Source: Escherichia phage vB_EcoM_JS09
Sequence record: NC_024124.2
DNA: 64,000 nucleotides
Reading direction: 5' to 3' (one strand)
Part shown: positions 10,827 to 56,534 of the stretch, piece after piece
How the letters are laid out: every line of letters begins with the position of its first letter
Position numbering within the stretch: the stretch's first letter is position 1
Notes under the pieces: model-generated
Database searches by the model: none
What the model was told of the DNA's origin: nothing
What the model saw: only the letters and a program-made list of their open reading frames with translations
Translations under genes and position numbers: made by a program

Positions 10827-12275
10827 TTAAGCTGTAGGAAGTTCAACCCATGCACCATCTTTGCGAACATAGAATTTACCGTCTGAAGGAGCATCTTCAA
10901 TATATCCAGCTTCCTTAAGAGTTTGGATTTCAGCTTCTGCAGCGGCCAAATCAGTTTCAAGAGTAGCAATTCTAGAAGTTAAACCATTAATTGTCGTATC
11001 ATGACTTTTAACTGTAGGCAATATACCACGTTCTTCAACAGTCGAACCATTTGGGTTGGTGCCATTTATAAGAGTATTTAATGTGTTTACAGAACCCTTA
11101 ATTCCTGTGCTATTAGTCCCAACATCAGTTTGAATGTTCTGAATGTCATTACTCAGCCCACTGATAGTTCCTTCAAGCTCTCGAGTACGATAAAGCAAAG
11201 AGCCGTCTGGTTCCGGTTTCCCGCCTGAAGCGTCAACACCGACTACGTTATTTAACCATGACACATTAAAACGCAATCCTGACGAAGAATCAGAGCCGAC
11301 AACAGTGTTCAATGCTCCGATAGCATCAGTATTGAGTTTAATACGTCCTTGGATTGTAGTAGGCAAATCATCAGCGCCAATGGCAGTTTCTACTGTAGTC
11401 AAACGAGGTTTAATACCACCTGATTGATTGAGCTCAAGATTAATGTCATTTATTGCTGAACTATTTGCATTAGTTGTAGTAATAATAGAAGTCGTATTAG
11501 GATACCCAATAGACTGTTTAATGCCGTCCAAGTCAGCATTTTGACGCGACAAAGTTAAATCAATACCGGAAAGACGACTAAACACTGGAGTAGTGAAAGA
11601 AGTGCGAGGCCCCATTTCTTCGCGCAAGTGTTCAACTTCAACAGTTAAAGAGCCGACGTCAGAATCAGCAAATTTAGTTTCCAAATCAGTTAATCGAACA
11701 CCGTGGTCAACAATTACGGAGCTATTAGTCATAATACGGCGTTTCATACCAGTGCTATCATTTCCTGGAGTAGGAACCCCATTAATATCTTGACCGGTAT
11801 ATTGTCCTAATTCATTTTTAATCCAAAGCAGGTCGTTACGAACCGTTCTATAAACTGAATCTGTTTCCTGATTATAAACACCAATATCGTCAGTATTCGC
11901 ATCAATATGTTCATTCAAATCATTCAATTCACTGGCATGGGTTTGAACTGTGACTTTAATGACATCGATATCTTGGGTGTTCTGGCCTATCTGTGCAAGA
12001 GCATCAACATCCCCAGAAACATCTAAAATACCTTGAATAGCTTTGATATCTTCATTGGCCGTATTCAAAGAAGATGCTATAGTTTTAATATTAACATCTA
12101 ACGCTTCTACGTTACGTTGAACTTCAACAATAGGACGGTTCATTACACCTTCAGAACCGTATTTTGTGTCAGCACCTGTTATTTCTTCATCGTTTTTAAT
12201 CCATTCAATACGACTCTGACCCGCGTCTGGTGGGCCGTCAACATATGGTAAATCTACCAGAGTTATATCAGTCAT
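10827..12275 (-). CDS. wac: fibritin (whisker) with C-terminal foldon
   Basis: 482 aa; coiled-coil body; C-terminus GYIEDAPSDGKFYVRKDGAWVELPTA resembles the T4 foldon. Confidence 0.92.
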   Translation of the reverse strand: MTDITLVDLPYVDGPPDAGQSRIEWIKNDEEITGADTKYGSEGVMNRPIVEVQRNVEALDVNIKTIASSLNTANEDIKAIQGILDVSGDVDALAQIGQNTQDIDVIKVTVQTHASELNDLNEHIDANTDDIGVYNQETDSVYRTVRNDLLWIKNELGQYTGQDINGVPTPGNDSTGMKRRIMTNSSVIVDHGVRLTDLETKFADSDVGSLTVEVEHLREEMGPRTSFTTPVFSRLSGIDLTLSRQNADLDGIKQSIGYPNTTSIITTTNANSSAINDINLELNQSGGIKPRLTTVETAIGADDLPTTIQGRIKLNTDAIGALNTVVGSDSSSGLRFNVSWLNNVVGVDASGGKPEPDGSLLYRTRELEGTISGLSNDIQNIQTDVGTNSTGIKGSVNTLNTLINGTNPNGSTVEERGILPTVKSHDTTINGLTSRIATLETDLAAAEAEIQTLKEAGYIEDAPSDGKFYVRKDGAWVELPTA

Positions 12276-13948
12276 TATTTTACCTTAATGATATAGTTTA
12301 AAGAAATATTCCATGGGCGAGTTTCATTTCCAATTAATTCTGGACGATTCAGGGTATATTTAGAGTTACGCTGAGACGCTGGATCAATTTCATATCCATC
12401 GTTAGTAAAATACGAACGGTTATCTTCTGGACGATTCAGGGTATATTTAGAGTTACGCTGAGACGCTGGATCAATTTCATATCCATCGTTAGTAAAATAC
12501 GAACGGTTATCCCACCAGTCAAGTCCTTTACGAGTACCAACAAAGTTTGAACGACGAGTATTACCGAATGCTCCTGCATCGCCATGTTCACCAAAACCGC
12601 CAGCATGCTTATGATATGACATCTGTTGTTTTTGCACCTCACCAACATATCCACCGGTACAACCTACCGCCAGACGAGGCTTACCGAATTGGTCATTACC
12701 ATTAACATTAGGGTTAGTTAAATGGTTACCACGACCGGAGCCGCGAACAAATAATCCACGCATATCGGGCAAGCCTGGGTTAGAAGAACTACCACCATAT
12801 CGTGTCCCAATTCTGGAAGCATATACCGGACATTCTGAAGCAGAAACGGTCCCACCGTGACAGAAACGCCAGTCCGAACTCGGCAAACTATCTGCAGCCC
12901 ACATTGTAATAGCGCCAACTGGAAGAATTCGGTCTAATTCATTTTGAGTCACAATACGATTGCCTTGAATATAACCACCGGTCATATTGACATTACCCGT
13001 TATATTAGCACCACCAGAACCAACCGTCAACGTATTATTAATGCGAAGAGTGCCATTAATAGTTTGACCGCCTCGTTGGTGGATAACATCAGCATTCCAA
13101 GCAAGGGCAGAAGAACCATCACCACCTGATTGGCTACCCGCTTGTGTAGTTAAACGAACAACTCCACGTAAAGAAGTTGTAGCCCCACGCCCGTTTAATG
13201 TTGCGCCGGTCACTACAACTGAAGAGTTGTTACTATTTACTTCAGTCTGTGTCCCTAGTTTAACGACACCTTTATTAGTTTCTGATGCTACTGAATTCAT
13301 AAAGGTATAAGGTGAAATTGCATAGCCTTCACGCAGGGTGCCTTGTTGTGCTTGTGCAACTGTAGCTAAACGAACAACACCTGTAATAGATTCGGTGGCG
13401 TCACTATTATTTGGAGCAATTTGCGAAATAAGTTTAATTGCTAATTGTTGCGTTTTTAACGGAGTCATTGCCGTTGTATCGTCAGAACCAGCTAATGCCG
13501 CAGCAGAAGTTGAAATTTTAATTACACCATTTGTTGCTTCTGTTGATACTTTTGTCTGGAATACATTGTCTATTTTTTGATTCAATTTAAGCGGAGTAAT
13601 TGATGCATCGTCAATAGCTCCGGCTACTGCTTCATCTTCAGTAGCATAACGAGTTAAACCATATTGAGTTTCGGTTGCATTAGGATATTGTAGACGAGCA
13701 TTCAGTGATGCCGGAGTAACAGCTTTACTATTATCTAATCCATCAATAACTTCTTGTGGAGTGGCTATTTGAATAATTCCAGGTGTAGTAGTTGTTGCTT
13801 CCGGTACGCCATTAACACCTGAAGGAGAAATAGCAGCTAATGCGGCTTGGACATTAGTGACTGTATCTGGAAAATTCGACCCAGTAGGGTCGAATTCAAC
13901 GTAAATAGATTCATTTGAAACGTGTTGGTATGTATTGTTATTACTCAT
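12275..13948 (-). CDS. 12: short tail fibre gp12 (carries in-frame 29-aa tandem duplication near C-terminus)
   Basis: 557 aa versus 527 aa recalled for T4 gp12; C-terminal ...[20 protein letters not shown] matches T4. Confidence 0.92.
12338..12511. repeat. perfect 87-bp x 2 direct tandem repeat inside gene 12
   Basis: Unit ttctggacgattcagggtatatttagagttacgctgagacgctggatcaatttcatatccatcgttagtaaaatacgaacggttatc occurs twice back to back (12338-12424, 12425-12511), encoding [29 protein letters not shown] twice. Confidence 0.9.
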
Positions 13949-17353: not shown

Positions 17354-18358
17354 TTAAAACATAAACAAAATGTTAATTTCTTCTGTTTGGTCCATTGCCA
17401 TAATAACAGGTGGTCGGTTTTCCATATAAATCATTTCACCTGAATGACGCTGCAGGTCTCTAGGGTCGTAATAATCCTTTTCTGCTTTAACATTAGGGTC
17501 ATTTGGATTTTTCTTAGCTTCTAAAGGGTTTGCGATAATTGATATCTGTCTAAAACCCTTGTTACCAGGCAAAGCTGCCTCAGGGAAATAAACAGAATCA
17601 AAATATGCTTTAAACCGCATCGTATTGGCTTTAACACGGTAAATCAAGCCGTAGTCATCTTGTTGCCAAGTTAAGTTATTTTCATATCCCCAACGGGTGG
17701 GGTCTTCTTTAATTTCTTCCGGCCATGGAACTACAAGATATTCATTAGTGCAACGGTTAATTGACACATCTGCAGGAATCTCATAAAGATATTCCCAAAT
17801 ATATCCATCACCGGTTTCTATAACCCCATTAGCATCGCCTCTGCCTTCAGGAGGAGACATAGAACGAACAGACGGGGTCCATTTACCACCTAATTTAAGA
17901 CATTCATCTTTATTATCTAAAGATTCTATTGAACAGAGCCCTACGTCAGGGACATCTAAACAACGGTAAATTAACCAACCAGCTCCAACTTCTGTCGCGT
18001 TGTACGGAGCAGTATTACATGCGACTATATCGTTAATTCTAAACGTGTAAGGGTCTGGATATCGCACATCTCCCCAATCACGTCTAGGAATAACAGAATC
18101 TAACATTGAAGGTAAAACTTTAACGGTGCCCATCATATGGGTCCACATATCAGTAACACCAAGAACAGAATCTGTAGGATAAGGTGGGGCGAAGCCCACC
18201 TCATTTTCATTTGACGCCCAAGGCTCTGAACGTCCAAACGTAATATAAATGGAGTTCTTATCATCTCCATCCCCAACTGAATTATAAAAATTCAGCATTT
18301 TCTCTGTTCTAAATTTTGATGTAACTATTGCACGATAGATAACACTTGAATCATTCAT
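17354..18358 (-). CDS. 8: baseplate wedge protein gp8
   Basis: 334 aa, same as T4 gp8; synteny. Confidence 0.9.
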   Translation of the reverse strand: MNDSSVIYRAIVTSKFRTEKMLNFYNSVGDGDDKNSIYITFGRSEPWASNENEVGFAPPYPTDSVLGVTDMWTHMMGTVKVLPSMLDSVIPRRDWGDVRYPDPYTFRINDIVACNTAPYNATEVGAGWLIYRCLDVPDVGLCSIESLDNKDECLKLGGKWTPSVRSMSPPEGRGDANGVIETGDGYIWEYLYEIPADVSINRCTNEYLVVPWPEEIKEDPTRWGYENNLTWQQDDYGLIYRVKANTMRFKAYFDSVYFPEAALPGNKGFRQISIIANPLEAKKNPNDPNVKAEKDYYDPRDLQRHSGEMIYMENRPPVIMAMDQTEEINILFMF

Positions 18359-30416: not shown

Positions 30417-30419
30417 GTA

Positions 30420-30449
30420 GTTTACACGCTGATAGGACTATGTTATAGT
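30420..30449 (+). promoter_or_regulatory. early promoter cassette with palindrome GATAGGACTA...TAGTCCTATC around -10
   Basis: GTTTAC, 18-nt spacer, TATAGT; perfect 10-bp inverted repeat flanks the -10. Confidence 0.55.
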
Positions 30450-30487
30450 AGTCCTATCAAAACAAAATGAGTAAATGGAGAAATAAA

Positions 30488-31923: not shown

Positions 31924-31995
31924 GGCCCTGTAGCTCAATGGGAGAGCTGTCAGCTCATAACTGATAGGTAGCTGGATCGAAACCAGCCAGGGTCA
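31924..31995 (+). tRNA. tRNA with anticodon CAT (Met, or Ile2 if lysidine-modified); genomic CCA follows at 31996-31998
   Basis: Hand-folded cloverleaf: acceptor ggccctg/cagggtc, D stem gctc/gagc, anticodon stem gtcag/ctgat with loop ctCATaa, T stem gctgg/ccagc. Confidence 0.8.
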
Positions 31996-32001
31996 CCAAT
32001 C

Positions 32002-32075
<74 letters not shown>

Positions 32076-32096
32076 CCAACTTTAAGTGAGGAAAAT

Positions 32097-32441: not shown

Positions 32442-32744
32442 GAAGCCGGGTCGCTACCGGCAAGTCGTCGGACTGATGTTCCCTGAGTAAGGACTGGTCT
32501 TAATAAATCTTTATGATTTGTTAATATCCCCTTACATCACAGCAGAAACGGCGCAAAGAATTATCGATTCGAGGAAATATCTTTGCCGTAAGCCGAGTAG
32601 CGTTTTTGACGGAACGTTCGGATATGGTCGAGATATGGCCTTTTAAAAATATTGAGTAGCGTCAACTGCTTAATAACCGGGTTCGAATCCCGGCGTTTCG
32701 TACAAACACTTGCCTTAGTAGGTGGAAACCCCGACAAGGTATAT
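32442..32744 (+). ncRNA. candidate small stable RNA region (tRNA-cluster-associated, T4 RNA C/D-like position)
   Basis: About 300 bp non-coding stretch after the tRNAs; contains T-arm-like ccgggTTCGAATcccgg at about 32677-32693 and a repeated gagtagcgt motif; ends at a strong terminator. Confidence 0.3.
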
Positions 32745-32773
32745 AGCCCCTTCCGAAAGGTTGGGGCTTTTTT
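32745..32773 (+). terminator. rho-independent terminator
   Basis: agcccc-ttccgaaaggtt-ggggct followed by tttttt. Confidence 0.7.
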
Positions 32774-32817
32774 GTATAAATATAGTAAACAATAAACCTA
32801 CTTTCTAAGGACCATCA

Positions 32818-33478: not shown

Positions 33479-33496
33479 TAACTTACTGAAAAAGTT

Positions 33497-33525
33497 GTTT
33501 ACTTCTTCCCTAGATGTGTTACTAT
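33497..33525 (+). promoter_or_regulatory. T4-type early promoter (GTTTAC / TACTAT)
   Basis: 17-nt spacer; upstream of 33554 CDS. Confidence 0.55.
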
Positions 33526-33553
33526 GGTCCTATTAAAACATGAGGAGAATAGT

Positions 33554-33927: not shown

Positions 33928-34092
33928 ATGACTACTTTAATTATTTGGTTCGATGAAAATGAAGAAACATACTGTGTGAATATTGGTGAAAGTCCAATGC
34001 CTGAATTTGAATCCTCAGATAAAAACTCTGTTGTATCTTGGGCTGAAGGTTATAAAGCCGCTAAAGGTGACGTTGAAATAATTTACATCTAA
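33928..34092 (+). CDS. small hypothetical protein (54 aa, below ORF-track cutoff)
   Basis: ATG after SD gaggag; MTTLIIWFDENEETYCVNIGESPMPEFESSDK... Confidence 0.4.
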   Translation: MTTLIIWFDENEETYCVNIGESPMPEFESSDKNSVVSWAEGYKAAKGDVEIIYI

Positions 34093-34110
34093 GTACGTTT
34101 ATGTTATAGT
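34081..34110 (+). promoter_or_regulatory. early promoter (ATTTAC / TATAGT)
   Basis: 18-nt spacer; upstream of 34139 CDS. Confidence 0.4.
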
Positions 34111-34138
34111 AATCACATCAAATCAAGAGGAAAATAAA

Positions 34139-37169: not shown

Positions 37170-37174
37170 AACAG

Positions 37175-37203
37175 TTTACAACAAGATAGGGCTATGTTAT
37201 AGT
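37175..37203 (+). promoter_or_regulatory. early promoter cassette with palindrome GATAGGGCTA...TAGTCCTATC
   Basis: GTTTAC, 17-nt spacer, TATAGT. Confidence 0.55.
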
Positions 37204-37231
37204 AGTCCTATCAAATTAAATGGAGTCTGCA

Positions 37232-38532: not shown

Positions 38533-38733
38533 ATGACTACTTTGAATAAACGTTTCGGTAAAGCTAAACCTGGTTGTGCAGCAAAACGTCGTTATGTTTT
38601 CGCTCAGTTAGAAGATGTAGAGTATCAGATTAATCAAGTTCACATTACTGGTATCGAGCCTATGTGTGGCCTTGAAGCTCTTCGTGAAGTTCGTGATGGG
38701 TATCGTCGTGACATCGAAGAAATGTCAAAATAA
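38533..38733 (+). CDS. hypothetical protein
   Basis: Track ORF 38515..; second ATG after SD ggag; 66 aa. Confidence 0.5.
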   Translation: MTTLNKRFGKAKPGCAAKRRYVFAQLEDVEYQINQVHITGIEPMCGLEALREVRDGYRRDIEEMSK

Positions 38734-38734
38734 G

Positions 38735-38763
38735 TGTACAAACTGATAGGGCTATATTATAGT
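38735..38763 (+). promoter_or_regulatory. early promoter cassette (GTGTAC / TATAGT) with palindrome GATAGGGCTA...TAGTCCTATC
   Basis: Same cassette family. Confidence 0.5.
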
Positions 38764-38789
38764 AGTCCTATCAACTTGAGGAGAATATT

Positions 38790-42228: not shown

Positions 42229-42240
42229 GGAAAAATGAAA

Positions 42241-42351
42241 ATGTATCAAGAATTTATCATTGAAGCAGAGGCCAAAGGTCCTAAAGTAGATGTTGACGAT
42301 ATTGGATATGATTTTAACAACTTCGGAATTATTTCTGGCGGTAAAGCTTAA
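42241..42351 (+). CDS. short CTS-like peptide (36 aa; possibly an internal-protein gene remnant)
   Basis: MYQEFIIEAEAKGPKVDVDDIGYDFNNFGIISGGKA; has the CTS core YQEFI.E. Confidence 0.3.
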   Translation: MYQEFIIEAEAKGPKVDVDDIGYDFNNFGIISGGKA

Positions 42352-42354
42352 ACG

Positions 42355-42384
42355 GTTTACGCTTAAGTATTAATATGGTATAAT
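42355..42384 (+). promoter_or_regulatory. early promoter (GTTTAC / TATAAT)
   Basis: 18-nt spacer; upstream of 42415 CDS. Confidence 0.55.
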
Positions 42385-42414
42385 TGCTCTATCAAAACAA
42401 ACAAGGAAACAAAA

Positions 42415-42729
42415 ATGAAAACGTATAAAGAATTTATTGCAGAATCCGCCAACCAACGCGTTGAAGGTGGTTATATTTGGATTGAACAAGTTGAGCCACC
42501 GAGCCGCACTTCTACAGGTAAATGGAAAATTACTGTTGATGGTCCTGGTGGTAAACGTAGGACTCTTAAAGAAATTAACGGGTACTATGAAGAAGCTCTT
42601 TCGGATGCAGGAACTTACATGATGCAAATCATGATTAAAAACCCTGAAAACCGTTTTGCAGCTAAAGTCTTCCGCCGTATTGGTAATAAACTTTATGATG
42701 CATATTCTAAAAACTTCCCTAAAGAATAA
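42415..42729 (+). CDS. internal head protein with CTS
   Basis: 104 aa; N-terminus MKTYKEFIAE (CTS consensus with gp21 cleavage site after Glu10). Confidence 0.6.
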   Translation: MKTYKEFIAESANQRVEGGYIWIEQVEPPSRTSTGKWKITVDGPGGKRRTLKEINGYYEEALSDAGTYMMQIMIKNPENRFAAKVFRRIGNKLYDAYSKNFPKE

Positions 42730-42755
42730 CATAAATTAAAACAATAGGAAAAAAA

Positions 42756-43058
42756 ATGAAAACATATCAAGAATTTATTACTGAAGCGCGAGTGAGTGCA
42801 GGTAAATTAGAAGCCGCTATAAATAAAAAGGCCCATTCATTTCATGATTTGTCCGATAAAGACCGTAAGAAACTTGTAAGCCTTTATATTGACAAAGAGC
42901 GTATTCTCGCTCTTCCTGGCGCTAATGAAGGTAAACAGGCCAAGCCTTTGAATGCTGTCGAAAAGAAAATTGATAACTTTGCTTCTAAATTCGGTATGTC
43001 TATGGATGACCTTCAGCAAGCGGCTATCGAAGCAGCTAAAGTAATTAAAGGTAAATAA
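42756..43058 (+). CDS. internal head protein with CTS (ipII-like)
   Basis: 100 aa; MKTYQEFITEARVSAGKLEAAINKKAHSFHDL...; T4 IPII is about 100 aa. Confidence 0.65.
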   Translation: MKTYQEFITEARVSAGKLEAAINKKAHSFHDLSDKDRKKLVSLYIDKERILALPGANEGKQAKPLNAVEKKIDNFASKFGMSMDDLQQAAIEAAKVIKGK

Positions 43059-45081: not shown

Positions 45082-45296
45082 TGGCTTCTACTATTACTGG
45101 GTTATTGGACTTTCAAGAAAAGGTCAACAAAATTTGTAGTGAATACTTAAAGTATCTTGAAGAAGACCTTGAAGATTGTAAGGAAGAAGGCGAAGAAGAC
45201 TATGCTGACCAGCGCCGACGCCAAATCGAAGAGATGAGGCATTTCGCCGATATGGTATCTAAAGAATCTTGGGCTTTAACTCCATTTTATCAATAA
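45081..45296 (+). CDS. hypothetical protein
   Basis: 71 aa, acidic. Confidence 0.5.
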   Translation: MASTITGLLDFQEKVNKICSEYLKYLEEDLEDCKEEGEEDYADQRRRQIEEMRHFADMVSKESWALTPFYQ

Positions 45297-45300
45297 AGTA

Positions 45301-45329
45301 GTTTACTTCTCCTCTAGTTGTGTTACTAT
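45301..45329 (+). promoter_or_regulatory. early promoter (GTTTAC / TACTAT) with 14-bp perfect inverted repeat TTCTCCTCTAGTTG / CAACTAGAGGAGAA
   Basis: The 3' arm (45339-45352) contains the SD of regB. Confidence 0.6.
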
Positions 45330-45357
45330 AGACCTTGTCAACTAGAGGAGAAACCAA

Positions 45358-48908: not shown

Positions 48909-48914
48909 TTTACT

Positions 48915-48944
48915 AGCCCCTTCCTTACGGTTGGGGCTTTTTTG
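48915..48944 (+). terminator. rho-independent terminator
   Basis: agcccc-ttccttacggtt-ggggct followed by ttttt; near-duplicate of the terminator at 32745. Confidence 0.7.
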
Positions 48945-48952
48945 CATTTAGC

Positions 48953-48982
48953 AGTTTACTTCTCCTCAGGTTGTGTTATAGT
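48953..48982 (+). promoter_or_regulatory. early promoter (GTTTAC / TATAGT) with SD-complementary arm
   Basis: cttctcctc upstream pairs with gaggagaa SD of the 49010 CDS. Confidence 0.55.
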
Positions 48983-49009
48983 AGTCCTTACTTACTAGAG
49001 GAGAACGTT

Positions 49010-49453: not shown

Positions 49454-49668
49454 TGTTATATGACCCAAGCGGCAATTTTGAAAATGGTGTGATTGTTCTG
49501 GAGCCTGAGCATCCAGTTGGTGACGTATACCGCCCAGTTGAAGTATGCGAATGTAATTTTGTTAAAGGTAATACTGGCGGAATTTCCATTGAGCAAGACG
49601 ATGATGTTATTTACCTGGATGCAAGCCAAGTAGAAGCTCTTTATAGCATTTTAAAACACAATCGGTAG
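49453..49668 (+). CDS. hypothetical protein, MLYD family (paralogue 2)
   Basis: MLYDPSGNFENGVIVLEPE... Confidence 0.5.
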   Translation: MLYDPSGNFENGVIVLEPEHPVGDVYRPVEVCECNFVKGNTGGISIEQDDDVIYLDASQVEALYSILKHNR

Positions 49669-49697
49669 TTTACAACTTGGTAGGACTATGTTATAGT
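49668..49697 (+). promoter_or_regulatory. early promoter cassette with perfect palindrome GGTAGGACTA...TAGTCCTACC
   Basis: GTTTAC, 18-nt spacer, TATAGT. Confidence 0.55.
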
Positions 49698-49725
49698 AGT
49701 CCTACCAAAACAAATGGAGAACAAA

Positions 49726-52013: not shown

Positions 52014-52363
52014 GTAGATAAATAACTCTTAACTTGAGGTAAATATGAAAAAATTAGTAATTGGTTTATTCGCAGTAATGATGGCATTCTCTGTTGGTGC
52101 TACCACAGGTACAGGAGCCGGTGGTAACCAGTCTTCTGGGCCTTCCAACGGTTCGGTAAATGCATCACATTCTCAGGGTATTGAGAATATCAAATCAAGC
52201 TATATTAATAGCACGGCCGGACAAGCAACTGAAGCATGGTCAAAGGGACGAGTAGTTACTCGCTCCGTATTCTGTGATATGCCTAATTATGTTGCTAAGT
52301 GCGATAAGTAAATGCGGGGACCTTCGGGTCCCTTTAGGGGGTTAAAATATTTTTAAAAAAGTA

Positions 52364-52393
52364 GTGTACATGCTTTTAGGATATGTTATTATA
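52364..52393 (+). promoter_or_regulatory. early promoter cassette (GTGTAC / TATTAT) with conserved leader
   Basis: Followed by cgaaacgaaatgagtaaattggagaataaaATG. Confidence 0.5.
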
Positions 52394-52430
52394 GACCTAT
52401 CGAAACGAAATGAGTAAATTGGAGAATAAA

Positions 52431-53549: not shown

Positions 53550-53837
53550 ATGGATTTTATGCAAAAAATTAAAGCCGCAGTCGAACTCTATGCTCATCGT
53601 ATGGTTAGTTCTACAATGCAATATAGCGAGGAGGTTCGCCAGGACTCTTCCTTGAAAGGAAAAACTAAAGCCTTAATTACCTTAGATTGTTTGCAAAAGA
53701 ATGCCATAGAGATGCTCCAGTACGACAAGGGTGTATATAAGAAAGAACAGGAAGAGAAACTTAAATCTGAAAAATTACAAAAAATCCCGAAGTCTGTTTG
53801 GTTCAGTGGAAAAAATACCGAAAAAAGTTTCTTTTAG
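53550..53837 (+). CDS. hypothetical protein
   Basis: 95 aa; SD aagagga 8 nt upstream. Confidence 0.5.
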   Translation: MDFMQKIKAAVELYAHRMVSSTMQYSEEVRQDSSLKGKTKALITLDCLQKNAIEMLQYDKGVYKKEQEEKLKSEKLQKIPKSVWFSGKNTEKSFF

Positions 53838-53839
53838 TT

Positions 53840-53868
53840 GTTTACAAGGTCTATGATTATGTTATTAT
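53840..53868 (+). promoter_or_regulatory. early promoter cassette (GTTTAC / TATTAT)
   Basis: 17-nt spacer; inverted repeat ggtctat...atagacc. Confidence 0.55.
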
Positions 53869-53895
53869 AGACCTATCAACTACTGGAGGTAAAAC

Positions 53896-54485: not shown

Positions 54486-55481
54486 ATGAGCATTACATCT
54501 GATGCGGTAAAACATGAAATTAACGGTTTATGTGCTTCACAGATTAAAGTGTGGTTTAAAGACCATAATGATCGCAGAGCACTTAATTATGAGCAAATTG
54601 CTATCCAAGTTCATCAATTATTGACTAGTAAATTTGATTTTCATATGCCGTCTGAAATCTATACTAATCTACCGCGAGCGCTTATTAAAGCGTGTAAAGG
54701 TTACGGAAAATCAATGGCCGATGGAATCTTCAGCGCGCTGAATAAACTTAACGTTCTGTCGATGATTAACTCTAATAACATCCTGCGTAATCTAGGACGT
54801 ACTGATTTGTTCGGTCGTGAACAGTGTAAAATGCCTTTGAAATGGATTGTTGCTCATCTTAACGAGAACCAAACACGTTTTATGGCCGTATCAGCACGCT
54901 TACAAATGGGCCTAGATCGTCAGATGAACTTTAAAACTCATCCACGTTATTCAGGTTCAACAGACTTTTATAAATGTGAGCTTCAAAAGGTTGCAGGTAA
55001 AACTGTCTTAGTAGTTCGTGTAACGTTTGAAGGACGACGTCAAGGATATTTTGACCTAATCGGCTCTGGTCTTAAACATTGTGGATTTATTGACGAAGTT
55101 GTTATAAAGCGAGACGGCATTGGATATCGTATTGGATATGTTTGTACTCTTAAAGAAGAGATTTCAGGTCCAGCACCAGGACTAAAAGACGTTAGATATA
55201 AAGACGAGCTCGTTGAAGAAATAAAAGAAGTTGAATATGATATCAACCAAGAAGATGCTCTTAAAGACCTTATTGATGAACTAAACCAAGACGTTATTCC
55301 GGTTCAAAAATTTGAATCAAAACATGCTGAGCAAATCAAATACTTTGAAGCTTTGATTAACGAACTTAATGTAACTATTCAACAGACTGATGATGAAATC
55401 TCACGATTAGCAGGCTTAAACGGTAAAAATAAAACAGAACGAGCTAATCTTATTCAAGTAGTAAAACTTCTTAAGGAATGA
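54486..55481 (+). CDS. hypothetical protein with C-terminal coiled coil
   Basis: 331 aa. Confidence 0.6.
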   Translation: MSITSDAVKHEINGLCASQIKVWFKDHNDRRALNYEQIAIQVHQLLTSKFDFHMPSEIYTNLPRALIKACKGYGKSMADGIFSALNKLNVLSMINSNNILRNLGRTDLFGREQCKMPLKWIVAHLNENQTRFMAVSARLQMGLDRQMNFKTHPRYSGSTDFYKCELQKVAGKTVLVVRVTFEGRRQGYFDLIGSGLKHCGFIDEVVIKRDGIGYRIGYVCTLKEEISGPAPGLKDVRYKDELVEEIKEVEYDINQEDALKDLIDELNQDVIPVQKFESKHAEQIKYFEALINELNVTIQQTDDEISRLAGLNGKNKTERANLIQVVKLLKE

Positions 55482-55511
55482 TGTACAACCAAGGATGGTT
55501 GGAGTATAATA
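55482..55511 (+). promoter_or_regulatory. early promoter (ATGTAC / TATAAT) with ccaaggatggttgg element
   Basis: Near-identical cassette repeated at 56477. Confidence 0.5.
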
Positions 55512-55536
55512 AATTTTTCAACATGAGGAATATAAA

Positions 55537-56472: not shown

Positions 56473-56476
56473 AATA

Positions 56477-56506
56477 GTTTACAACCAAGGATGGTTGGAG
56501 TATAAT
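56477..56506 (+). promoter_or_regulatory. early promoter (GTTTAC / TATAAT) with ccaaggatggttgg element
   Basis: 18-nt spacer. Confidence 0.55.
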
Positions 56507-56534
56507 GAATCTATCTTAACGAGAGGAAAATATT

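What the first reader, a model, noticed from the sequence alone, without database searches (positions are those of the whole stretch)
12338..12511. Perfect 87-bp in-frame tandem duplication near the C-terminal tip of the short tail fibre gp12
Two identical, contiguous 87-bp units (12338-12424 and 12425-12511) encode [29 protein letters not shown] twice, 20 residues from the gp12 C-terminus. The protein is 557 aa, about 30 longer than the T4 gp12 I recall. The C-terminal domain of gp12 is the receptor-binding head, so a 29-residue insertion there could change adsorption or host range. The 100% nucleotide identity means either a very recent duplication or an assembly artefact.
Basis: seen in the sequence. 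Interest (0 to 1): 0.55.

Follow-up and report, generated by a model that had tools for sequence, protein, structure and literature searches.

The report
Probable assembly-paste duplication in gp12
The perfect 87-bp repeat in the short-tail-fibre gene of phage JS09 is really there in the deposited sequence, but its exact layout and its absence from every independent assembly point to a sequence-finishing error rather than a new receptor-binding variant.

Summary
Window 12338-12511 holds two identical 87-bp units inside gp12 (12275-13948, minus strand; 557 aa against the usual 527). The window is Escherichia phage vB_EcoM_JS09 (KF582788 / NC_024124). Together the two insertions equal one contiguous 90-nt block (12425-12514). 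That block is a verbatim wild-type substring, overlapping the left flank by 87 nt and the right flank by 3 nt. This is what results when a 90-nt bridging piece is pasted between two abutting contigs without trimming. A single biological duplication cannot give the observed W-W-U-U order. Among 247-343 phage records and 7 independent metagenome/SRA contigs, only two other records carry the repeat (TU01, MRostami-2023e). Both are demonstrably scaffolded on JS09, so they are not independent. Of 11 JS09 proteins sampled here, only gp12 and its neighbour wac carry revised accessions (.2). With the 87-bp copy, the CCA and one substitution (D456G) removed, the protein is identical to a common allele. 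Best explanation: finishing artefact (about 0.68). Rival: a genuine, private two-step duplication (about 0.27). A PCR across 12200-12700 (501 vs 411 bp) would settle it.

The parts
12275..13948 (-). gp12 short tail fibre CDS as deposited (557 aa; 527 aa in all independent relatives)
   Evidence: ORF list. Pfam PF14928, PF09089, PF07484. Match to T4 gp12 5iv5_O at E = 2.9e-290. Exact protein is AIA79960.2 / YP_009037335.2 of phage JS09.
12338..12424 (-). 87-nt unit, copy nearer the stop codon (residues 509-537). Under the paste model this is the true end of the left-hand piece ('contig 1').
   Evidence: TRF, sequence, decomposition.
12425..12511 (-). 87-nt unit, second copy (residues 480-508), 100% identical to 12338-12424
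   Evidence: Absent from pEK20, F31, EQ1 and SSE1 and from 7 Logan/ENA contigs.
12512..12517 (-). CCA-CCA, a 3-nt tandem duplication encoding Trp478-Trp479. Wild type has one CCA (Trp; T4 W477). It abuts the 87-nt repeat with zero spacing.
   Evidence: Alignment A1. In a tblastn of the LDWWDN segment, 343 records match and only the JS09-derived TU01 has WW..
12425..12514 (.). The single contiguous 90-nt block whose removal restores the wild-type sequence. It is a verbatim wild-type substring (U'+CCA) and the putative pasted bridging piece.
   Evidence: Exhaustive scan of 90-nt deletions: only a start at 12425 restores the pEK20 sequence, leaving just the private SNP at 12582. The 90-mer occurs exactly once in each of pEK20, EQ1, F31 and SSE1.
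12582..12582 (-). JS09-private non-synonymous substitution D456G (T4 D455) in the head domain. It is the only other protein-level difference from the pEK20/AV110 allele.
   Evidence: Private-site list. An exact look-up of the reverted protein hits P0171, which is the pEK20/AV110 allele.
10827..12275 (-). wac (fibritin), the adjacent gene. Of the JS09 proteins sampled here, it is the only other one whose accession was revised (AIA79959.2).
   Evidence: Pfam Fibritin_C; accession versions.

Best explanation
The repeat is most likely a finishing or concatenation artefact in the deposited JS09 genome, not a feature of the phage. On the + strand the record reads L-U'-U'-CCA-CCA-GTC, where wild type reads L-U'-CCA-GTC. 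That equals left piece (ending in U') + a 90-nt wild-type piece (U'+CCA) + right piece (starting CCAGTC), joined end to end without removing the 87-nt and 3-nt overlaps. One paste event explains three things: both private insertions, their exact adjacency, and the preserved frame (90 is divisible by 3). The true JS09 gp12 would then be 527 aa and differ from the common pEK20/AV110 allele only by D456G. Shown here: the layout, the unique 90-nt decomposition, privacy to one record lineage, non-independence of the two other carriers, and a localised record revision. Inferred: that a paste actually happened, and when. The idea that the piece was a 90-nt Illumina read rests on my own knowledge that 2x90 reads were common around 2013. 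It is not verified for JS09.
For: (1) Exactly one contiguous 90-nt deletion (12425-12514) restores wild type, and that 90-mer is present verbatim once in each of four independent relatives. (2) Two perfect tandem duplications (87 nt and 3 nt) abut with zero spacing, and the order is W-W-U-U rather than (W-U)(W-U). (3) There is no microhomology at the repeat boundaries. (4) The insertion is private to JS09. Only TU01 and MRostami-2023e also carry the repeat, out of 143 DNA matches of which 98 are full-length. The same holds for 247 records with the segment. Only TU01 has WW among 343 records. Junction hits in IMG/VR, GTDB genomes and JGI metagenomes were zero. All 7 de novo Logan/ENA contigs that carry JS09's exact gp10 or gp14 allele and a complete gp12 encode 527 aa. 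(5) The two other carriers are not independent. TU01 is in exact positional register with JS09 over 49,000 nt, with 942 substitutions or Ns and 0 indels. MRostami-2023e keeps JS09's register across every N-run and shares 0 of JS09's 88 private substitutions, yet has the repeat. The de novo control SSE1 shifts register at each break. (6) The 87+3 nt is the only JS09-private indel in 24 kb. (7) Of 11 JS09 proteins sampled, only gp12 and the adjacent wac have version .2, so the submitters edited exactly this locus. (8) With the repeat, the extra Trp and D456G removed, the protein is identical to an allele seen on 9 contigs. (9) De Bruijn contigs normally share end overlaps of length k (PMC10914622), and an ENA contig found here is even named k87_..., so overlaps of 87 nt occur in practice.
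Against: No reads or earlier record versions could be examined, so the paste is inferred, not observed. The insertion is in frame and sits in a receptor-binding domain, where real adaptive duplications are known in T4 gp37 (Tetart et al. 1996, listed in PMC3157838). The second half of the unit is naturally length-variable in distant homologues, by 2 and 5 residues, so some insertion tolerance is plausible. A real perfect repeat would itself break a short-read assembly and prompt a targeted Sanger correction of gp12, so the .2 revision can be read either way. The record is otherwise clean, with no other private indel in 24 kb. JS09 is a viable phage with efficient adsorption (PMC8546717), which is compatible with either reading.
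Confidence: 0.68

Rival explanations
1. A genuine duplication private to JS09. Two separate in-frame events in the JS09 lineage or lab stock (an 87-nt tandem duplication of residues 480-508 and a 3-nt Trp duplication next to it), or one complex double template switch, enlarged a surface segment of the knitted gp12 head. One copy would occupy the native position and the other would loop out, possibly altering LPS-core binding.
For: The sequence is in the RefSeq exemplar and is in frame. The site is in the receptor-binding head. The [18 protein letters not shown] half of the unit varies in length in distant homologues. A private D456G lies 22 residues upstream of the inserted Trp. With 0.37% private-branch divergence, zero differences between the copies is unremarkable. 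The phage is viable with >95% adsorption and LPS as receptor (PMC8546717). A gp37 duplication precedent exists. A real repeat could explain why the submitters revised this locus.
Against: It needs two independent events landing exactly adjacent (positional chance about 2 in 1674), or a rare double template switch. A single duplication cannot give W-W-U-U. There is no flanking microhomology. No independent assembly among several hundred carries either insertion. The head is an intertwined knitted trimer with a buried Zn site (PMC3004832), a demanding context for a 30-residue insertion plus an extra Trp. A gp12-only correction would not be expected to change wac as well.
Confidence: 0.27
2. An untrimmed k = 87 contig-end overlap plus an unrelated 3-nt error. 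Two de Bruijn contigs, or the two ends of one circularly permuted contig, sharing an 87-nt terminal overlap were concatenated, and the CCA is a separate miscall. This is a sub-variant of the artefact explanation, and its probability is counted inside the 0.68.
For: 87 is odd, as k-mers are. End overlaps of length maxK are standard for such assemblers (PMC10914622). A contig named k87_ appears in ENA. T4-like genomes assemble as circles (own knowledge).
Against: It leaves the exactly abutting CCA duplication as an unexplained coincidence, whereas the 90-nt three-piece model explains both insertions. Locus-tag order inferred from notes in the SSE1 record suggests the original record start was near gp68, not in gp12.
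Confidence: 0.15
3. A duplication shared by descent among JS09, TU01 and MRostami-2023e, i.e. a small natural clade with a 556-557-aa gp12.
For: Three GenBank records from China, Nepal and Iran contain the identical repeat.
Against: TU01 has 0 indels against JS09 in 49 kb and the same coordinate origin. MRostami-2023e shares none of JS09's 88 private substitutions, including the two in gp12. It is N-padded in JS09's register and differs at the site only by the small CCA deletion that a short-read indel caller could call. Both records are labelled partial or UNVERIFIED.
Confidence: 0.03

Closest known systems
Bacteriophage T4 gp12 short tail fibre (PDB 5IV5, 1OCY, 1PDI; Pfam PF14928/PF09089/PF07484)
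   Same: Alignable over the full length (E = 2.9e-290). Same three domains, same gp11-gp12-wac synteny, and the Zn-binding HKH motif is conserved. The unit corresponds to T4 residues 478-506 in the knitted head.
   Different: The deposited JS09 protein has 30 extra residues (a repeat of 478-506 plus a second Trp after W477). No other sequenced member has them.
Host-range duplications in the T4 gp37 long-tail-fibre adhesin (Tetart et al. 1996, J Mol Biol 258:726; cited in PMC3157838)
   Same: In-frame tandem duplication of a small segment near the C-terminal receptor-binding end of a T4-type fibre protein. This is the biological precedent for the rival reading.
   Different: From my own knowledge of that paper, those duplications were selected experimentally, linked to a phenotype, and arose between repeated sequence motifs. 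Here there is no microhomology, no phenotype, no second observation, and an abutting 3-nt duplication that a single event cannot produce.
Untrimmed contig-end overlaps or pasted bridging reads in genome finishing
   Same: Perfect identity of the copies, privacy to one record, an inserted block that is a verbatim substring overlapping both flanks, and a locus that the submitters revised. End overlaps of length k are normal for de Bruijn contigs (PMC10914622).
   Different: This cannot be confirmed without reads or the earlier record version. The overlaps are unequal (87 and 3 nt), which fits a pasted fixed-length piece better than a plain k-mer overlap.
Reference-bias inheritance in mapped-consensus genomes
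   Same: TU01 (SNP-only consensus) and MRostami-2023e (consensus with small indels and N padding) reproduce the reference-specific 87-nt repeat, exactly as expected when single-copy reads are mapped onto a reference with a tandem repeat.
   Different: The TU01 paper describes a CLC assembly rather than mapping (PMC9117343). The inference rests on the sequence, not on the stated methods.

Membership tests
T4-type gp12 short tail fibre | Domain set: gp12 middle domain + collar + short-tail-fibre receptor-binding domain | tested here: met
   PF09089 at 2.5e-39, PF07484 at 4.4e-14, PF14928 at 1.4e-73.
T4-type gp12 short tail fibre | Full-length homology to the solved T4 gp12, and the Zn-binding HxH motif | tested here: met
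   5iv5_O at E = 2.9e-290. SYHKHAGG is conserved. His445/His447 coordinate Zn in T4 (PMC3004832).
T4-type gp12 short tail fibre | Genomic position between gp11 and wac | tested here: met
   GP11 and Fibritin_C Pfam hits on the neighbouring ORFs.
T4-type gp12 short tail fibre | Single copy of the 478-506 segment (527-aa length class in Mosigvirus and Tequatrovirus) | tested here: not met
   557 aa in the record. All independent relatives are 527 aa.
Genuine adaptive tandem duplication in a fibre adhesin (gp37 type) | A single novel junction, i.e. a layout explicable as one duplicated segment | tested here: not met
   The layout is W-W-U-U, two abutting duplications.
Genuine adaptive tandem duplication in a fibre adhesin (gp37 type) | End points at short repeats or microhomology | tested here: not met
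   Boundaries are a|t, c|t and c|c with no shared bases. TRF gives exactly 2.0 copies.
Genuine adaptive tandem duplication in a fibre adhesin (gp37 type) | Seen in reads, or in an independent isolate or assembly | tested here: not met
   The only other carriers are JS09-scaffolded. No junction hits elsewhere. Seven de novo contigs have a single copy. JS09 reads were not available.
Genuine adaptive tandem duplication in a fibre adhesin (gp37 type) | An associated adsorption or host-range phenotype | not testable with these tools
   PMC8546717 shows LPS-dependent adsorption of JS09 but makes no comparison with a single-copy gp12.
Concatenation or finishing artefact | The inserted block is a verbatim wild-type substring overlapping both flanks | tested here: met
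   The 90-mer at 12425-12514 occurs once in each of 4 relatives, and its removal uniquely restores wild type.
Concatenation or finishing artefact | Private to one deposited record and its derivatives | tested here: met
   with non-independence shown.
Concatenation or finishing artefact | The locus was edited or joined during finishing | tested here: inconclusive
   Only gp12 and wac carry version .2 among the 11 proteins sampled. The content of the revision is unknown.
Concatenation or finishing artefact | No read spans the U'|U' junction | not testable with these tools
   No access to JS09 reads or to SRA.

The most novel reading that the evidence does not exclude
The 30-residue expansion is real. 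A viable, broad-host-range T4-like phage would then carry a repeated 29-residue segment plus an extra Trp inside the intertwined, Zn-centred knitted head of its short tail fibre. That would be the first natural segment duplication in gp12, analogous to the gp37 host-range duplications, and it would imply unexpected plasticity in this fold and possibly altered LPS-core recognition.
Probability: 0.27. Interest if true: 0.45.

Novelty: not a real feature. Interest (0 to 1): 0.15.

Why it matters
JS09 is the exemplar genome of the species Mosigvirus JS09 and a RefSeq record. If the insertion is an artefact, an erroneous 557-aa gp12 (YP_009037335.2) sits in reference databases. It has already spread into at least two later GenBank genomes (TU01 and MRostami-2023e) through reference-guided consensus building, where it could be mistaken for a recurrent host-range variant. 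Flagging it prevents wrong conclusions about variation in receptor-binding proteins. If the insertion is real after all, it would be a moderately interesting case of insertion tolerance in a knitted trimeric fold and a candidate determinant of irreversible adsorption. It would be cheap to test with a single PCR.

Tried and rejected
(1) Junction searches (exact and back-translated NRPE|DNRSY) in IMG/VR, GTDB genomes and JGI metagenomes found nothing. The wild-type junction is itself rare in IMG/VR (1 hit), so this negative is weak. The GenBank phage set and the Logan/ENA contigs give the real denominator. (2) An exact look-up of the 557-aa product among assembled contigs found nothing on record. 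(3) I tried to recover the pre-revision AIA79960.1 by exact look-up of plausible variants: 528 aa with WW, 527 aa with G456, 556 aa, and 557 aa with D456. None is in the collection. Only the fully reverted form matched, and that is the pEK20/AV110 allele. (4) The original JS09 genome paper (Intervirology 2015, doi 10.1159/000437426) is not held, so the sequencing and assembly methods remain unknown. (5) search for homologous proteins with the collar and head region returned only 5 proteins. That was enough to show natural length variation in the unit but too shallow for modelling. (6) An AlphaFold2 monomer of residues 331-557 gave mean pLDDT 45.7, with the head below 50 throughout. This is uninformative for an obligate intertwined trimer, so I ran no fold search. 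(7) I rejected clustering of private substitutions around the repeat: 2 lie in the adjacent 250 nt against about 0.9 expected. (8) I rejected descent from a common ancestor for the three carriers. (9) I rejected a simple 90-nt tandem duplication, because it would give (U'CCA)(U'CCA), which is not what is seen. (10) I considered inferring old record ends from the YP_/AIA accession numbering, then dropped it as too speculative. (11) A literature search for a citable description of duplications induced by gap filling found nothing directly on point.

Full report
OBSERVATION. The window contains a perfect tandem repeat at 12338-12511: period 87, 2.0 copies, 100% identity, TRF score 348 (raw sequence). 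It is the only large or perfect tandem repeat in the 64-kb window. It lies in a 557-aa minus-strand ORF at 12275-13948. That ORF carries the three Pfam domains of the T4 short tail fibre: PF09089, PF07484 and PF14928. It aligns end to end with T4 gp12 (5iv5_O, E = 2.9e-290) and sits between gp11 and wac. The repeated peptide [29 protein letters not shown] occupies residues 480-508 and 509-537, with 20 residues following. It corresponds to T4 gp12 residues 478-506.

SOURCE. An exact look-up identifies the protein as AIA79960.2 / YP_009037335.2 of Escherichia phage vB_EcoM_JS09, genome 169,148 bp. Window position 1 corresponds to genome position 64,001.

Relatives have a 527-aa gp12, so JS09 is 30 residues longer, not 29. 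Alignment with vB_EQ1, TU01 and MRostami-2023e shows a second insertion: an extra CCA (a second Trp, giving LDWWDN) immediately after the repeat. On the + strand the record reads L-U'-U'-CCA-CCA-GTC, whereas wild type reads L-U'-CCA-GTC. An exhaustive scan shows that exactly one contiguous 90-nt deletion (12425-12514) restores the wild-type sequence. That 90-mer (U'+CCA) occurs verbatim, once, in each of four independent relatives: pEK20, EQ1, F31 and SSE1. The record therefore equals a left piece ending in U', plus a 90-nt wild-type piece, plus a right piece starting CCAGTC, concatenated with the 87-nt and 3-nt overlaps left in place. A single biological tandem duplication has one novel junction. 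It would give U-U, or (W-U)(W-U), but not the observed W-W-U-U. There is no microhomology at the boundaries. Because the total is 90 nt, the reading frame is preserved automatically, so the in-frame property does not favour a biological origin.

DISTRIBUTION. In the GenBank phage collection, 143 records match the 3' part of gp12, 98 of them at full length. Only TU01 (MZ560701) and MRostami-2023e (OQ031495) also contain the repeat. A protein query across the junction gives the same result for 247 records. A query across LDWWDN matches 343 records, and only TU01 has WW. Junction patterns gave no hits in IMG/VR, GTDB genomes or JGI metagenomes, although the wild-type sequence is rare there too. 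In the 90% protein cluster of 194 members, the 40 read are 527 aa apart from JS09 and TU01 (both 557 aa), and MRostami-2023e's 556-aa translation is also a member. Eight independent de novo contigs (seven Logan SRA assemblies and one ENA metagenome contig) carry JS09's exact gp10 or gp14 allele. The seven with a complete gp12 all encode 527 aa, with a single copy and a single CCA. These are mosaic relatives at 96.6-99.6% identity, not JS09 itself.

THE TWO OTHER CARRIERS ARE NOT INDEPENDENT. TU01 is in exact positional register with the window over 49,000 nt, with 942 substitutions or Ns and no indels, and it uses the same coordinate origin. MRostami-2023e has 1,532 Ns in 49 kb and keeps JS09's register across every N-run. 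Its only indel in window 1-30151 is loss of one CCA. It shares none of JS09's 88 private substitutions, not even the two inside gp12. The de novo control SSE1 changes register at each alignment break. This is what single-copy reads mapped onto a JS09 reference would produce. An SNP-only consensus keeps both insertions (TU01). A consensus with small-indel calling removes the CCA but cannot remove an 87-nt repeat (MRostami-2023e). The TU01 paper describes a CLC assembly (PMC9117343), but the sequence itself shows scaffolding on JS09. The three records therefore count as one observation.

RECORD FORENSICS. Of 11 JS09 proteins sampled across gp20 to gp7, only gp12 (AIA79960.2) and the adjacent wac (AIA79959.2) have a revised version. 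The shared boundary of these two genes is 63 nt from the repeat. gp13, gp11, gp10, gp9, gp8 and gp7 are all still at .1. The submitters therefore edited this locus after deposition, although what they changed is unknown. In a 24-kb multi-alignment with four de novo relatives, the 87+3 nt is the only JS09-private indel. JS09 is a genuinely distinct lineage, with 88 private substitutions in 24 kb. When the repeat, the extra Trp and the private D456G are reverted, the protein is identical to the pEK20/AV110 allele, which is found on 9 contigs.

WEIGHING THE TWO READINGS. The paste model explains both insertions, their exact adjacency, the W-W-U-U order, the lack of microhomology, the privacy to one record and the local revision, all with a single event. 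Overlapping contig ends are routine for de Bruijn assemblers (PMC10914622). One ENA contig found here is even labelled k87. That 90 nt was a common Illumina read length around 2013 is my own knowledge and is unverified for JS09. Several points go against the artefact. No reads could be examined. The site is in a receptor-binding domain, where adaptive duplications are known for T4 gp37 (Tetart 1996, listed in PMC3157838). The distal half of the unit is length-variable in distant homologues. A real perfect repeat could itself have caused an assembly problem that prompted the revision. The copies' 100% identity is not diagnostic either way: given 0.37% private divergence, about 0.64 differences would be expected even for a repeat as old as JS09's private branch. 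JS09 is viable, with >95% adsorption in 15 min and LPS as receptor (PMC8546717), which fits both readings. The gp12 head is a knitted trimer around a Zn ion bound by His445 and His447 (PMC3004832), a demanding context for a 30-residue insertion. A monomer AlphaFold2 model was uninformative, with head pLDDT below 50.

VERDICT. The best explanation is a concatenation or finishing artefact in KF582788 / NC_024124 (about 0.68), which has since spread into TU01 and MRostami-2023e. The rival is a genuine, private, two-step in-frame expansion of the gp12 head (about 0.27). Shared descent among the three records is rejected (about 0.03). Biological interest is low unless a PCR across 12200-12700 gives 501 bp rather than 411 bp. 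The curation value is real, because JS09 is the species exemplar.

Noticed in passing
L005 (MZ560701 TU01, 64001-113000) and L006 (OQ031495 MRostami-2023e, 63900-113000): Both GenBank genomes are consensus sequences scaffolded on JS09. TU01 has 0 indels in 49 kb and identical coordinates. MRostami-2023e is N-padded in JS09's register. They inherit reference-specific features, so TU01's annotated 557-aa 'hypothetical protein' QYC95529.1 is probably not that phage's real gp12.
   Followed up: yes
window 12582: JS09-private non-synonymous change D456G (T4 D455) in the gp12 head, 8 residues after the Zn-binding HKH motif. Apart from the 30 inserted residues, it is the only protein difference from the pEK20/AV110 allele.
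   Followed up: partly
window 10827-12275 (wac) and accession series across the window: JS09 proteins fall into two accession series: AHN8279x for gp20 to gp14 and AIA799xx from gp13 onward. This suggests staged deposition. wac and gp12 alone are at version .2. wac also holds 12 of the 88 JS09-private substitutions found in 24 kb.
   Followed up: partly
window 30417-30471, 34078-34132, 37171-37225, 38731-38785, 42352-42406, 49665-49719; related families at 33481-33548, 45285-45352, 48938-49005, 52360-52401, 53836-53877, 55477-55519, 56473-56515: Repeated intergenic motif GTTTACA...TATGTTATAGTAGTCCTATC... upstream of small + strand ORFs. It looks like T4-type early promoters (a -35-like GTTTAC and a -10-like TATAGT/TATAAT).
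   Followed up: no
window 31924-31998 and 32002-32078: Two adjacent tRNA genes, tRNA-Met (CAT) and tRNA-Arg (TCT), both on the + strand according to ARAGORN. The TU01 annotation places the tRNA-Met on the opposite strand.
   Followed up: partly
window 32744-32777 and 48914-48947: Near-identical GC-rich hairpin plus T-run (TAGCCCCTTCC..GGTTGGGGCTTTTTTG), apparently a reused intrinsic-terminator module.
   Followed up: no
window 42231-42266, 42411-42446, 42752-42787: Three small consecutive ORFs start with nearly the same sequence (AAAAATGAAAAYRTATMAAGAATTTAT...), which suggests a local family of paralogous small genes.
   Followed up: no
L009 (OP870147 vB_Eco_F31), about 17555-17900, corresponding to window ~17453: F31 carries a 347-nt insertion inside gp8, which is annotated there as two CDS. 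The other relatives and JS09 lack it. It could be a small mobile insertion or an assembly problem in that record.
   Followed up: no
window ~404 (gp21, 330-971): A 6-nt in-frame indel polymorphism: pEK20 and SSE1 have two extra codons relative to JS09, F31 and EQ1.
   Followed up: no
P0016 and P0090: Fragments of Mosigvirus gp12 and gp8 are deposited at NCBI as Enterococcus faecalis proteins on very short contigs (1387 and 419 nt). This is most likely coliphage contamination of those assemblies.
   Followed up: no
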